This document shows positions 1-9,063 of a DNA stretch of 9,063 nucleotides, piece after piece (positions within the stretch are counted from its first letter, which is position 1; each line of letters begins with the position of its first letter). The notes beneath the pieces were generated by a model. That model was not told the origin of the DNA and did not search any database. It saw nothing but the letters and a program-made list of their open reading frames with translations. This DNA comes from a virus (taxonomy: Duplodnaviria > Heunggongvirae > Uroviricota > Caudoviricetes): the IMG/VR virus record IMGVR_UViG_3300029121_000075, one strand, 5' to 3'. A program made the position numbers and the translations under genes.

Positions 1-465
1 GTGTCCATTAAAAATGATGGACATTATTTTTGTAGAGCCGGAGGAAACAGACCAGACGGTTTAAATGAGCCGGTTACGTTGATGCGTGATATTCAGATGG
101 TTCTTGAGCGTTGGGGAGCGTGGGCGGCTAATAATCATGAAGATGTGACCTGGTCGTCCATTGCCGCCGGTTTTAAGGGATTAATTACTTCAAAAGTAAA
201 ATCTCGCCCGCAATGTTGTGACGATGACGCGATGATCATTTGCGGGTGCATGGCCCGTCTGAAAAAGAACAACAGCGATTTGCACGATTTATTAGTAGAT
301 TATTATGTAGTCGGTATGACATTCATGTCACTGGCAGGTAAGCATTGCTGCTCTGATGGTTATATCGGGAAAAGGTTACAGAAGGCTGAGGGCATAATTG
401 AAGGGATGTTAATGGCATTAGATATCCGGTTAGAGATGGATATCGTTGTTAATAACTCTAATTAA
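1..465 (+). CDS. Late-gene antitermination protein Q (lambdoid, DLP12 QuuD-like type). Drawn from the GTG at the window edge; a more probable start is ATG 82 (127 aa).
   Basis: Frame is open from position 1. Cys-rich segments ([20 protein letters not shown]) fit a Q-type zinc-binding region. Sits immediately upstream of a convergent porin gene and the lysis cassette, as in DLP12 (quuD then nmpC). Identification is from memory of the family, not a search. Confidence 0.7.
19..77. repeat. Left arm of an exact 59-bp inverted repeat (partner 9005-9063)
   Basis: I reverse-complemented 19-77 by hand and it equals 9005-9063 base for base. Identity stops at 78 vs 9004. Possible extension into 1-18 cannot be tested because the partner would lie beyond 9063. 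Confidence 0.95.
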
Positions 466-490
466 TACGCCAATTATTTACTAAAAGTTA

Positions 491-516
491 TTAAAAATGG
501 GGCGTTGAAACGCCCC
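491..516 (-). terminator. Candidate intrinsic terminator for the porin gene (minus strand)
   Basis: GC-rich hairpin GGGGCG(499-504)/CGCCCC(511-516). On the minus strand the hairpin is followed by AUUUUUAA (complement of 491-498). Lies about 140 nt downstream of the porin stop. Confidence 0.45.
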
Positions 517-604
517 CAAAAATAAAGGGTAATATATAACAGAAGGTTTGTATAGTTAGAAGCAAGGTTGTGCTTCTAAAGGAAGTGGCTTGAGGGAGCC
601 ACTT

Positions 605-645
605 ATATGTTGGGGAGGCAAAGCCTCCCACAACATATCTTTTAG
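605..645 (+). terminator. Long imperfect hairpin, possible plus-strand terminator between convergent Q and porin genes
   Basis: ATATGTTGGGGAGG / CCTCCCACAACATAT palindrome (core GGGAGG-CAAAG-CCTCCC) followed by CTTTTAG. The U-tract is short, so function is uncertain. Confidence 0.3.
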
Positions 646-653
646 TAATCAAA

Positions 654-6237: not shown

Positions 6238-6265
6238 AGATTGATATTACAGTGGTTTTATTTTT
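6238..6265. repeat. Perfect 11-bp inverted repeat with 6-bp spacer inside the AT-rich cosB-like region
   Basis: CCACTGTAATA-GATTGA-TATTACAGTGG read directly, followed by TTTTATTTTTATGG. Possible terminase small-subunit or IHF binding site, or an RNA hairpin. Confidence 0.8.
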
Positions 6266-6358
6266 ATGGTGTCGATTTTGATTGTTTTTTGTTCATCACT
6301 AACACCGTTTGCCTAAAGTTGTTCGCGAGATGCATGTTTAAAACATTCTGGAGCGGGT

Positions 6359-6853
6359 ATGGATCGAGAGTTAAAAAATCTGACGCTGAATATCAGTCAA
6401 CTGGCGGCACTGTCAGGTGTACATCGCCAGACTGCTGCGGCAAGGCTGCAAAATCTACCCGTTGCAGGGGGGCATGAAAGCAACCTCAAGCTTTATCGGG
6501 TGGTTGATATTGTGTCGGCATTTCTGGCATTGCCACCGCCGGTTGCAGAAGGCGAAATGGACGCGCATGAGCGCAAAGCCTGGTATCAGTCTGAACGTGA
6601 GCGTCTTAAGTTCGAACAGGAAACGGCACAACTCATTCCGGCCAGTGATGTCAGACGGGAGTTTGCCATCTGGGCAAAAGCGGTCGTGCAGGTGCTGGAG
6701 ACATTACCGGATATTCTGGAACGTGACTGCGGTCTGCAGCCTGCCGCTGTGAGCCGTGTTCAGTCCATTATTGATGATCTGCGCGATCAGATAGCCCTGC
6801 GGGTGACTGAAGCAGGTGCGGATGATGAGGAGGAATTACAGCAGGAGGAGTAA
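6359..6853 (+). CDS. Terminase small subunit (Nu1-like, winged-HTH DNA-binding)
   Basis: 164 aa. N-terminal HTH-like LNISQLAALSGVHRQTAAARLQNLPVAGG parallels lambda Nu1 (QLADIFGASIRTIQNWQEQGMPVLRGGG). Acidic C-terminus. SD GGAG 5 nt upstream. Stop overlaps the terL ATG (TAATG). Confidence 0.8.
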   Translation: MDRELKNLTLNISQLAALSGVHRQTAAARLQNLPVAGGHESNLKLYRVVDIVSAFLALPPPVAEGEMDAHERKAWYQSERERLKFEQETAQLIPASDVRREFAIWAKAVVQVLETLPDILERDCGLQPAAVSRVQSIIDDLRDQIALRVTEAGADDEEELQQEE

Positions 6854-8955
6854 TGCTGAATCAGGAAACCGCAAAGGCAGCACGAACCGATTCAGGTTAT
6901 ATCCTTCGCGCACCGAGACGAATGCGGGTTGCTGATGCCGTTGCTCAGTATATGCGGGTGCCCATGGGGGCAGGGAACTCAGTCCCGTGGGATCCGCTGG
7001 TGGCACCGTATGTTATTGAGCCGATGAACTGCCTGGCCTCGCGTGAATACGACGCAGTGATATTTGTTGGCCCGGCACGAACCGGCAAGACTATCGGCCT
7101 GATTGACGGCTGGGTGATTTACAACGTGATTTGCGATCCTGCTGATATGCTGATCATTCAGATGACGGAGGAAAAAGCCCGCGAACACTCCAAAAAACGA
7201 CTCGCCAGAACGTTTCGCGTCAGCCCGGAAGTGGTCAGTCGCCTGAGTCCGAACAAAAATGACAACAACGTTTATGACAGAACATTCCTTGCTGGTAACT
7301 ACCTGAAAATCGGCTGGCCGTCAGTCAATATCATGTCCTCATCAGATTATAAATGCGTCGCGCTGACGGATTATGACCGTTTTCCGGAAGATATTGATGG
7401 CGAGGGGGATGCTTTCTCTCTTGCCTCAAAACGTACCACCACATTTATGTCCAGCGGTATGACGCTGGTGGAGAGTTCCCCCGGCAGGGATGTGAAGGAT
7501 GTGAAATGGCGACGGACTTCACCGCATGAGGCTCCACCAACCACGGGGATCCTGTCGCTCTATAACCGTGGTGATCGCCGTCGCTGGTACTGGCCCTGTC
7601 CACACTGTGGTGAGTATTTTCAGCCCTGCGGCGATGTGGTTGCTGGTTTCCGTGATATTGCCGATCCCGTGCTGGCAAGTGAGGCGGCTTATATTCAGTG
7701 TCCTTCCTGTTCAGGACGGATTATGCCTGAACAAAAACGTGAGCTGAACGGACGTGGGGTCTGGTTGCGGGATGGTGAATCCATCAATGCGGATGGCAGT
7801 CGTTATGGTGATCCCCGACGCTCACGTATTGCGTCATTCTGGATGGAGGGTCCGGCAGCTGCTTACCAGACACTCTCGCAACTCGTTTACAAACTGCTTA
7901 CTGCAGAACAGGAATACGAGACAACCGGAAGTGAAGAAACACTCAAGACGGTTATCAATACCGACTGGGGATTACCTTATCTTCCCCGCGCCAGCATGGA
8001 GCAACGAAAAAGTGAACTGCTTGAGCAGCGGGCAGAGCCAGTTCCTTCCCGCAGTGTGCCGGATGGCGTTAATTTCCTTGTGGCGACAGTGGATGTGCAG
8101 GCGGGACGTCATCGCCGTTTTGTGGTTCAGGTAACGGGCTATGGCAGCCGTGGCGAACGCTGGATTATTGATCGTTACAACATCACGCAGTCATTGCGCG
8201 GTGACAGCGACGGGGAGAGCCAGCGAATTGATCCGGCCAGCTATCCGGAAGACTGGGATGTCCTGCTGACGGATGTTTTTCATAAAAGCTGGCCGCTGGC
8301 CTCCGATCCTTCTCAACAAATGCGACTGATGGCAATGGCGGTGGACTCCGGCGGTGAAGACGGGGTCACTGATAATGCCTATAAATTCTGGCGTCGTTGC
8401 CGTCGTGATGGCCTTGGTAAACGTATTTACCTGTTTAAGGGCGACAGCATCCGGCGCGCAAAACTGATCACCCGTACATTCCCTGATAACACCGGACGAA
8501 CGGGCCGACGGGCGCAGGCCGCAGGTGATGTGCCGCTCTGGCTTCTTCAGACGGATGCACTGAAAGACCGGGTGAATAACGCGTTATGGCGTGACTCGCT
8601 AGGTCCCGGCTATGTGCATTTCCCTGACTGGCTGGGGAGCTGGTTTTACGACGAACTGACGTATGAAGAGCGGAGCAGTGACGGGAAATGGAGTAAGCCG
8701 GGTCGCGGTGCCAACGAAGCTTTTGACCTGATGGTGTATGCCGAGGCTCTGGTCATTCTGCATGGATACGAAAAGATCCGCTGGCCGGATGCACCGGAGT
8801 GGGCGAGCCGGGAAACCTGGCTGGAGTGTGTCCAGGACAGTACCGAACCGTCATCCTCACCGGAACCGGTATCCACGCCTGTTAAAAAACAAAAACGGAA
8901 GAAAACAGTAACTGACGATGTTAACCCCTGGCTGACTTCCGGAGGATGGTTATGA
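6853..8955 (+). CDS. Terminase large subunit, lambda gpA family (ATPase/endonuclease)
   Basis: 700 aa. P-loop GPARTGKT. CPHCGE zinc-motif block (WYWPCPHCGEYFQ) as in lambda gpA. VDVQAGRHRRFVVQVTGYGSRGERWIID parallels gpA GIDSQLDRYEMRVWGWGPGEESWLID. Translationally coupled to terS, with strong SD AGGAGG. Confidence 0.93.
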   Translation: MLNQETAKAARTDSGYILRAPRRMRVADAVAQYMRVPMGAGNSVPWDPLVAPYVIEPMNCLASREYDAVIFVGPARTGKTIGLIDGWVIYNVICDPADMLIIQMTEEKAREHSKKRLARTFRVSPEVVSRLSPNKNDNNVYDRTFLAGNYLKIGWPSVNIMSSSDYKCVALTDYDRFPEDIDGEGDAFSLASKRTTTFMSSGMTLVESSPGRDVKDVKWRRTSPHEAPPTTGILSLYNRGDRRRWYWPCPHCGEYFQPCGDVVAGFRDIADPVLASEAAYIQCPSCSGRIMPEQKRELNGRGVWLRDGESINADGSRYGDPRRSRIASFWMEGPAAAYQTLSQLVYKLLTAEQEYETTGSEETLKTVINTDWGLPYLPRASMEQRKSELLEQRAEPVPSRSVPDGVNFLVATVDVQAGRHRRFVVQVTGYGSRGERWIIDRYNITQSLRGDSDGESQRIDPASYPEDWDVLLTDVFHKSWPLASDPSQQMRLMAMAVDSGGEDGVTDNAYKFWRRCRRDGLGKRIYLFKGDSIRRAKLITRTFPDNTGRTGRRAQAAGDVPLWLLQTDALKDRVNNALWRDSLGPGYVHFPDWLGSWFYDELTYEERSSDGKWSKPGRGANEAFDLMVYAEALVILHGYEKIRWPDAPEWASRETWLECVQDSTEPSSSPEPVSTPVKKQKRKKTVTDDVNPWLTSGGWL

Positions 8956-9008
8956 ACCAGAATGATATCGAAGCCATGATTCAGCGTTATATGGAAGCTG
9001 AAATGTAA
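8952..9008 (+). pseudogene. 18-codon ORF remnant after terL, probable truncated 5' end of the next head-morphogenesis gene
   Basis: ATG overlaps the terL stop (ATGA) and is preceded by SD GGAGGA at 8941-8946, so a real gene start is likely. The frame (MNQNDIEAMIQRYMEAEM) ends at a TAA that lies inside the inverted-repeat arm. Confidence 0.3.
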
Positions 9009-9063
9009 CCGGCTCATTTAAACCGTCTGGTCTGTTTCCTCCGGCTCTACAAAAATAATGTCC
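9005..9063. repeat. Right arm of the exact 59-bp inverted repeat (partner 19-77); runs to the window edge
   Basis: GTAACCGGCTCATTTAAACCGTCTGGTCTGTTTCCTCCGGCTCTACAAAAATAATGTCC is the exact reverse complement of 19-77. Confidence 0.95.

What the first reader, a model, noticed from the sequence alone, without database searches (positions are those of the whole stretch)
19..9063. Exact 59-bp inverted repeat brackets the whole Q-to-terL segment
Positions 19-77 and 9005-9063 are perfect reverse complements. The right arm runs to the window edge, so the true repeat may be longer. The inner boundaries are sharp: 77/78 is 4 nt before the probable Q ATG (82), and 9004/9005 is at the end of an 18-codon ORF remnant after terL. 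This is not a hairpin, a known IS end that I recognise, or a Gin/Hin-type crossover site. It looks like the footprint of an inversion or inverted duplication, possibly between two prophage copies, leaving the 9-kb late region as a potentially invertible segment.
Basis: seen in the sequence. Interest (0 to 1): 0.75.

Follow-up and report, generated by a model that had tools for sequence, protein, structure and literature searches.

The report
Two inverted IS66-family insertions flank prophage genes
The 59-base inverted repeat is real, but it is only the visible tips of two oppositely oriented copies of a very common E. coli insertion sequence (ISCro1-like, IS66 family) that landed in a defective lambdoid prophage, which is an ordinary finding.

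Summary
Positions 19-77 and 9005-9063 are exact reverse complements, whereas the longest chance inverted repeat in this sequence is about 13 nt. The interpretation mostly does not hold. Both arms are the tnpA-proximal (left) end of an ISCro1-like IS66-family insertion sequence. Window 1-77 is 100% identical to full 2,699-bp copies in E. coli genomes, the terminus starts with the family-typical GTAA, and window 24..1 (minus strand) encodes the first 8 codons of tnpA. This end occurs 5,253 times in 1,732 of 5,426 complete E. coli genomes. All prophage and phage homology stops exactly at 77/78 and 9004/9005. Between them lies a collinear Qin-like late region running from Q to terL. One IS copy sits 4 nt upstream of the Q start codon and removes its Shine-Dalgarno sequence. 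The other cuts the small gene after terL at codon 18. The true repeat is therefore probably about 2.7 kb, and the 59 nt is set by the window edge. Two inverted IS copies could allow RecA-mediated inversion, but the inner junctions look the same in either orientation, so the window cannot show whether inversion happened. Neither junction was found in any searched collection, and the source genome was not recovered. This is already known biology of low interest.

The parts
1..77 (-). Left-hand IS copy: the first 77 nt of an ISCro1-like IS66-family element, read on the minus strand as GTAACCGGCTCATTTAAACCGT.... The 22-nt terminal inverted repeat is at 56-77. tnpA codons 1-8 (MSIIFNGH) are at 24..1. 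The rest of the element lies beyond the window start.
   Evidence: 100% identity over 1-77 to annotated IS copies in L022, L023 and L001. Under the matches, RefSeq annotates tnpA of an IS66-like element. The terminal IR was defined on the full copy in L022.
19..77 (.). Left arm of the reported 59-nt inverted repeat. It is the part of the IS end that the window also shows on the right.
9005..9063 (+). Right-hand IS copy in the opposite orientation: the first 59 nt of the same IS end. The terminal IR is at 9005-9026. The tnpA ATG is at 9058-9060. The copy is cut by the window end.
   Evidence: Exact reverse complement of 19-77. Matches lie under tnpA of IS66-like elements. Alignment is A1.
78..85 (+). 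GTTGATGC: the 8 bp next to the left IS copy. This is the expected target-site duplication of that copy and includes the Q start codon. The second copy of the duplication would lie outside the window.
   Evidence: The break point against the uninterrupted reference is ...GTGGAGTAA|GTTGATGCGTG. The 8-bp duplication size was shown on other copies of this IS. Its assignment here is inferred.
8997..9004 (+). GCTGAAAT: the 8 bp next to the right IS copy, the expected target-site duplication of that copy.
   Evidence: The break point against references is GAAGCTGAAATG|GCGGTG. Position 9005 (G) is shared by the IS end and the target, so the boundary is ambiguous by 1 nt. The assignment is inferred.
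82..465 (+). Antiterminator Q (QuuD-type, 127 aa). The IS end has replaced its native GGAG Shine-Dalgarno sequence.
   Evidence: Pfam Phage_antitermQ, E=3.5e-53. Junction alignment.
654..1736 (-). Phage-borne OmpC/NmpC-like porin (a moron gene), 360 aa.
   Evidence: Pfam Porin_1, E=3.6e-152. The same Q-porin module occurs in many lambdoid prophages.
2325..3880 (+). Lysis cassette: holin EssD (2325-2540), DUF1327/YdfR (2545-2856), lysozyme (2853-3386) and Rz-like DUF2514 (3383-3880).
   Evidence: collinear with Qin-type prophage annotation.
4086..5304 (+). Qin-type accessory genes: cspI with its cspA-type thermoregulator leader (4086-4502), ynfN-like (4689-4958) and gnsB (5131-5304).
   Evidence: Rfam RF01766, 107 bits; Pfam CSD and GnsAB_toxin; source names.
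6359..8955 (+). Terminase small subunit (DUF1441, 6359-6853) and large subunit (6853-8955).
   Evidence: Pfam DUF1441, GpA_ATPase and GpA_nuclease.
8952..9008 (+). Remnant of the 70-aa gene that follows terL in intact relatives. It is cut after codon 18, and the stop codon is supplied by the GTAA of the IS end.
   Evidence: Translation. Alignment to L002 and L003, where the gene is intact and followed by the portal gene.

Best explanation
The two arms are the tnpA-proximal (left) termini of two copies of an ISCro1-like IS66-family insertion sequence of about 2.7 kb. The copies sit in opposite orientations in a Qin-like lambdoid prophage, with their left ends facing inward. One copy inserted between ydfU and Q, 4 nt before the Q ATG. 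The other inserted into codon 18 of the small gene between terL and the portal gene. The window shows only the first 77 nt and 59 nt of the two copies, so the apparent 59-bp repeat is the visible tip of a repeat that is probably about 2.7 kb. Shown here: the identity of the IS end, the exact boundaries, and the collinearity of the enclosed segment with uninterrupted prophages. Inferred: both copies are full length, they arose by two ordinary transposition events each making an 8-bp duplication, and they inactivate the prophage. Inactivation would follow because Q loses its ribosome-binding site and upstream transcription, the gene after terL is truncated, and the late operon is severed from the portal and head genes. 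As a by-product, the inverted IS pair is a substrate for RecA-dependent inversion of the 8.9-kb segment. It is not a programmed switch.
For: Window 1-77 is 100% identical to the end of annotated IS66-like (ISCro1 family) elements in three unrelated contexts, and similarity falls to noise exactly after position 77 / before 9005. RefSeq annotates tnpA, tnpB and an ISCro1-family transposase next to that end. A full copy (L022 879-3577, 2,699 bp) has 22-nt imperfect terminal IRs starting with GTAA and encodes HTH_Tnp_1, TnpB_IS66, and zf-IS66 / LZ_Tnp_IS66 / DDE_Tnp_IS66 / DDE_Tnp_IS66_C proteins. It is flanked by an 8-bp duplication, AGTGGTTG; another copy has CGTAAAAA. Window 24..1 encodes MSIIFNGH, which is the start of TnpA. 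The 77-nt end occurs at 5,253 places in 1,732 of 5,426 complete E. coli genomes, up to 18 per genome. E. coli, phage and PLSDB ('plasmids') matches to the rest of the window start at 75-78 when they reach the left end, and all listed ones that reach the right end stop at 9005. The uninterrupted reference reads straight through both break points. A related prophage carries an independent ISCro1-like insertion with its own 8-bp duplication about 320 bp further downstream, in the portal gene. Literature: ISCro1 is an IS66-family element that has expanded in enterobacterial genomes and lowers transcription of adjacent genes (PMC3072379, PMC8764528).
Against: Only 77 nt and 59 nt of the elements are visible. 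Full length, the outer ends and the target-site duplications could not be checked, so one or both copies could be truncated remnants. The source genome was not found, and neither junction occurs in the GTDB representative genomes, IMG/VR, JGI metagenomes or 5,426 complete E. coli genomes. Independent insertion cannot therefore be separated from an IS-mediated rearrangement.
Confidence: 0.9

Rival explanations
1. The IS pair is the same, but the enclosed 8.9-kb segment has already been inverted relative to the rest of the prophage. This could have happened by RecA-dependent recombination between the two inverted IS copies. Alternatively the second copy arose by intramolecular replicative transposition, which creates an inverted IS copy and an inversion in one step. 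This adds to the main explanation and does not replace it.
For: The inverted orientation of the two copies is the geometry required. Inversions by homologous recombination between identical IS copies are documented in a related enterobacterium (PMC3072379).
Against: No data bear on it. Recombination inside the IS leaves both inner junctions unchanged, so the window reads the same in either state. No genome with either junction was found for comparison. As far as I know, IS66-family transposition has not been shown to be replicative-intramolecular (own knowledge, not tested).
Confidence: 0.2
2. Assembly boundary effect. On this reading the window is a whole short-read contig that ends where the assembler met a multi-copy IS, so the length of the repeat (77 nt left, 59 nt right) reflects assembler k-mer overlap. 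At worst, one junction is chimeric or present only in a subpopulation.
For: The left end carries exactly 77 nt of IS, a common de Bruijn k value (inference). The IS is multi-copy in many genomes. The exact terL protein is on record in 221 blocks, yet none of the 24 longest contigs carrying it has the IS junction, which fits a short source contig.
Against: Even so, both junctions have the precise structure of genuine IS66-family insertions, with a clean break at the GTAA terminus and the target reading through in relatives. A chimera is therefore unlikely. The right end has 59 nt, not 77. This rival changes the meaning of the 59 bp, not the identity of the element.
Confidence: 0.35
3. Composite transposon: the two inverted IS copies mobilise the Q-to-terL segment, including the porin and the lysis cassette, as one unit.
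For: Two copies of one IS in inverted orientation around a passenger segment is the architecture of Tn5/Tn10-type compound transposons (own knowledge; geometry).
Against: The passenger is collinear with its native prophage context, and its ends are ordinary internal prophage positions. The junctions were found in no other context in any collection. The outer ends would both be right ends, and activity in that arrangement is untested for IS66 elements.
Confidence: 0.03
4. Programmed invertible segment of the Gin/Hin/Pin type, with the 59-bp arms as crossover sites.
For: Qin-type prophages do encode a Pin invertase, but it lies several kb downstream of the portal region and outside this window (pinQ in L002).
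Against: The arms are IS termini that include a transposase-operon start codon. Each of the ten larger ORFs tested matches an ordinary phage late-region or accessory family and none matches a recombinase family; the smaller ORFs were not scanned. Known invertase segments carry tail-fibre gene ends, not Q-to-terL (own knowledge).
Confidence: 0.01

Closest known systems
ISCro1 / ISCro1-like elements (IS66 family) of Citrobacter rodentium and E. coli
   Same: 77/77 nt identity to the left end of copies that RefSeq annotates as 'IS66-like element ISCro1 family'. The terminus starts with GTAA and carries the 22-nt imperfect IR. The tnpA start lies 53 nt from the end. Sister copies make an 8-bp target duplication.
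   Different: Nothing differs in the visible part. The body of both copies lies outside the window, so the exact ISfinder isoform and the intactness of the copies are unknown. One paper gives 2,824 bp for its ISCro1 (PMC8764528), while the copy measured here is 2,699 bp.
IS-flanked segments that invert by homologous recombination (for example the ISCro4-mediated 0.59-Mb inversion in C. rodentium, PMC3072379)
   Same: Two identical IS copies lie in inverted orientation, so the enclosed DNA is a potential RecA-dependent inversion unit.
   Different: No inversion has been observed here. The segment is only 8.9 kb and lies inside a defective prophage.
Qin and DLP12 cryptic lambdoid prophages of E. 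coli K-12
   Same: The gene order matches the Qin-type annotation (ydfU, Q, essD, ydfR, rrrQ, rzpQ, cspI, ynfN, gnsB, terS, terL). The Q-porin pair is named QuuD by its sources and recurs in many lambdoid prophages; its resemblance to the DLP12 quuD-nmpC pair is from my own knowledge. Decay by IS insertion is typical of these prophages.
   Different: This copy still has intact terminase genes. It carries the porin module where the closest complete genomes have lipocalin and ybgA genes. These particular IS insertions were not found in any of 5,426 complete E. coli genomes.
Compound transposons with inverted IS arms (Tn5, Tn10)
   Same: The geometry is the same: inverted copies of one IS bracket a passenger segment.
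   Different: There is no evidence of movement as a unit. The passenger sits in its native context, and the IS family is different.

Membership tests
IS66 family insertion sequence (ISCro1-like) | Terminal inverted repeats of roughly 15-30 bp that begin with 5'-GTAA | tested here: met
   Both arms end in GTAACCGGCTCATTTAAACCGT at the exact point where prophage homology stops. In the full sister copy this pairs with GTAAGCGACTCGTCAGAACCGT at the other end (22 nt, 73%). The family rule itself is from my own knowledge of ISfinder.
IS66 family insertion sequence (ISCro1-like) | Three-gene organisation of tnpA, tnpB and tnpC, with IS66-type DDE transposase domains | tested here: inconclusive
   The window holds only tnpA codons 1-8 on the left and codons 1-2 on the right. 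Sister copies with an end identical over 77 nt encode HTH_Tnp_1, TnpB_IS66 (E=4.7e-40) and DDE_Tnp_IS66 (E=2.5e-103) plus zf-IS66, LZ_Tnp_IS66 and DDE_Tnp_IS66_C. Whether the two copies here are complete cannot be seen.
IS66 family insertion sequence (ISCro1-like) | 8-bp target-site duplication | not testable with these tools
   Met for sister copies: AGTGGTTG in L022 and CGTAAAAA in L001. For the window copies the outer flanks lie outside the window, and the source genome was not found.
IS66 family insertion sequence (ISCro1-like) | Near-identity to a named, curated element | tested here: met
   77/77 identity to ends of elements annotated 'IS66-like element ISCro1 family transposase'. 1,787 records hold the end at 99% identity or more. 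ISfinder itself was not available for a direct comparison.
Site-specific invertible segment (Gin/Hin/Pin/Cin serine invertase systems) | Short crossover sites (about 26-34 bp) recognised by an adjacent invertase gene | tested here: not met
   The arms are IS termini continuing into tnpA. The ten larger ORFs tested all match ordinary phage late-region or accessory families, none a recombinase family; the smaller ORFs were not scanned. In relatives pinQ lies well outside the segment.
Compound (composite) transposon | The whole IS-passenger-IS unit is found in a new context, bounded by one target duplication at the outer IS ends | tested here: inconclusive
   The junctions were not found in any other context in the E. 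coli complete genomes, GTDB representatives, IMG/VR or JGI metagenomes. The passenger ends are native prophage positions. The outer ends are not visible.

The most novel reading that the evidence does not exclude
The inverted ISCro1-like pair might act as a functional recombinational flip-flop or compound transposon. In that case the Q-porin-lysis-terminase block of a defective prophage would be inverted or moved as a unit, changing expression of the porin or lysis genes or spreading them. The window cannot exclude this, because the inner junctions are the same in either orientation and the flanks are unseen.
Probability: 0.03. Interest if true: 0.35.

Novelty: already known. Interest (0 to 1): 0.08.

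Why it matters
It matters little beyond correct annotation. The result identifies the repeat as two copies of a widespread IS. It explains why the prophage is defective: the Q ribosome-binding site is lost, the gene after terL is truncated, and the late operon is severed from the head genes. It also flags a spot where short-read assemblies will break and where RecA-mediated inversion is possible. It should not be carried forward as a candidate for a new inversion system.

Tried and rejected
1. I tried to recover the source genome and its flanks. An exact left-junction pattern found nothing in genome contigs. Left and right junction patterns found nothing in viral contigs. A degenerate pattern that matches both junctions, verified on the window, found nothing in metagenome contigs or genome contigs.

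2. Exact-protein look-ups for terL, the porin, the holin and the edge ORF 1-465 returned only intact or unrelated prophages, or nothing. All window proteins are common in E. coli except one holin variant.

3. BLAST hits to window 1-140 appeared to extend to positions 90-100, which would have put the IS end further in. Alignment A1 showed this was spurious gapped extension and that the end is exactly at 77.

4. I looked for an outward-facing promoter in the IS end that could drive Q. None was found, only a terminator-like hairpin at 1-24.

5. The founding IS66/IS679 paper was not in the held library. Family rules not covered rest on my own knowledge.

6. I considered and rejected a Gin/Hin-type switch, inverted duplication between prophage copies, and a hairpin or cruciform. 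The arms are 8.9 kb apart and are IS ends.
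Full report
**Observation.** Window 19-77 and 9005-9063 are exact reverse complements over 59 nt. The expected number of such pairs by chance is about 1e-28. The longest exact inverted repeat in the enclosed 78-9004 is 13 nt, the same as in shuffled sequence, which gave 11-15 nt. The right arm is cut by the window end.

**What the arms are.** Searching the two junction regions against 5,426 complete E. coli genomes put both arms under genes annotated 'tnpA: IS66-like element accessory protein TnpA'. Three such loci were fetched:
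- an insertion in wbdC (L022);
- an insertion in an unrelated chromosomal site (L023);
- an insertion in the portal gene of a related prophage (L001).

In the alignment of these with both window ends, window 1-77 is 100% identical to all three, and similarity falls to noise immediately after position 77 / before 9005. Some BLAST hits seemed to reach position 90-100, but that was spurious gapped extension.

Read on the minus strand, window 77..1 is GTAACCGGCTCATTTAAACCGTCTGG...ATGTCCATCATTTTTAATGGACAC. That is the element terminus, a 53-nt leader and the first eight codons of TnpA (MSIIFNGH).

The full sister copy in L022 spans 879-3577 (2,699 bp). It has 22-nt imperfect terminal inverted repeats, GTAAGCGACTCGTCAGAACCGT / GTAACCGGCTCATTTAAACCGT. 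It is flanked by the 8-bp duplication AGTGGTTG. It encodes proteins with HTH_Tnp_1, TnpB_IS66, and zf-IS66 / LZ_Tnp_IS66 / DDE_Tnp_IS66 / DDE_Tnp_IS66_C domains. RefSeq names the transposase 'IS66-like element ISCro1 family'. The copy in L001 has its own 8-bp duplication, CGTAAAAA.

The 77-nt end alone occurs at 5,253 places in 1,732 of 5,426 complete E. coli genomes, with up to 18 copies per genome, on both chromosomes and plasmids. ISCro1 is described as an IS66-family element that has expanded in Citrobacter rodentium and occurs in E. coli ST131 (PMC3072379, PMC8764528).

**What lies between the arms.** Matches to E. coli chromosomes, phages and PLSDB records start at 75-78 when they reach the left end. 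All listed ones that reach the right end stop at 9005. The enclosed segment is the late region of a Qin-like lambdoid prophage:
- Q (82-465);
- a reverse-strand porin moron (654-1736);
- holin, DUF1327/YdfR, lysozyme and Rz-like genes (2325-3880);
- cspI with its cspA-type thermoregulator leader;
- ynfN and gnsB;
- terS (6359-6853) and terL (6853-8955).

It is collinear with uninterrupted prophages such as that of E. coli H2 (L002). There the order is ydfU, Q..., terS, terL, a 70-aa gene, then portal.

Against that reference the left break is ...GTGGAGTAA|GTTGATGCGTG. This lies between the ydfU stop and the Q ATG, and it removes Q's GGAG Shine-Dalgarno sequence. The right break is GAAGCTGAAATG|GCGGTG, after codon 18 of the 70-aa gene. 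The GTAA of the IS end supplies the stop codon.

**Mechanism.** The best-supported reading is two ordinary insertions of the same multi-copy IS, in opposite orientations, with both left ends facing inward.
- Shown: element identity, exact boundaries, collinearity of the passenger, and that this IS inserts independently into this prophage family (L001).
- Inferred: both copies are full length (about 2.7 kb), so the real inverted repeat is about 2.7 kb. Each copy is flanked by an 8-bp duplication, GTTGATGC on the left and GCTGAAAT on the right.
- Inferred: the prophage is disabled. Q has lost its ribosome-binding site, and a terminator-like hairpin (1-24, + strand) with no outward promoter insulates it from upstream transcription. 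The gene after terL is truncated, and the portal and head genes are separated from the late operon.

**Can the segment invert?** Two inverted copies of 2.7 kb are a good substrate for RecA-dependent inversion, and such IS-mediated inversions are documented (PMC3072379). However, recombination inside the IS copies leaves both inner junctions unchanged. The window would therefore read identically in either state and carries no evidence for or against an inversion. Nothing suggests a site-specific switch. The arms run into a transposase operon, and the ten larger ORFs tested all match ordinary phage late-region or accessory families, none a recombinase family. Nothing suggests recombination between two prophage copies either, because the repeated DNA is not phage DNA.

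**Limits.** The source genome could not be recovered. Neither junction occurs in the complete E. coli genomes, GTDB representative genomes, IMG/VR or JGI metagenomes. Exact-protein look-ups gave only other prophages. The left end holds exactly 77 nt of IS, a common assembler k value. None of the 24 longest contigs carrying the identical terL shows the junction. The window may therefore be a short-read contig that stops in the collapsed IS. That would explain the arbitrary arm length, but it does not change what the arms are.

**Verdict.** The repeat is real, but the phenomenon is ordinary and already known: an IS66-family (ISCro1-like) pair in a decaying prophage. Interest is low.

Noticed in passing
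window 1-24 (both strands): The tnpA start codon sits in the 5' arm of a 7-bp hairpin, TGTCCAT-N8-ATGGACA. On the minus strand this could sequester the start (fold of the 77-nt end: -16.9 kcal/mol, z = -3.0). On the plus strand the same hairpin followed by TATTTTTGTA scores as a terminator-like site that would block transcription reading out of the IS towards Q.
   Followed up: partly
window 1-77 versus 9005-9063: The left end holds exactly 77 nt of IS sequence, a common de Bruijn k-mer size, and the right end holds 59 nt. This hints that the window may be a short-read contig ending in a collapsed repeat.
   Followed up: no
window about 466-2300: The Q-proximal module is mosaic. The window carries a reverse-strand OmpC/NmpC-like porin gene where the closest complete E. 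coli prophages carry lipocalin, ybgA and an HTH gene. As a result no complete genome covers more than 78% of the window. The exact porin protein is extremely widespread (7,500 index blocks).
   Followed up: partly
L001 4326-7024 (E. coli 24AR0142, NZ_CP195362.1): There is an independent ISCro1-like insertion with an 8-bp duplication (CGTAAAAA) in the portal gene of a related prophage. It lies only about 320 bp downstream of the position hit in the window and has the same orientation as the window's right-hand copy. This may be a locally favoured target region or a coincidence.
   Followed up: no
window 4086-4502: There is a full-length match to the cspA thermoregulator RNA family (RF01766, 107 bits) covering the leader and coding region of the prophage cspI gene.
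   Followed up: no
search_dna_similar 'plasmids' hits H92-H94: Several PLSDB 'plasmid' records that match the prophage segment are 4.8-4.9 Mb long with no gene annotation. They are most likely chromosomes mislabelled as plasmids.
   Followed up: no
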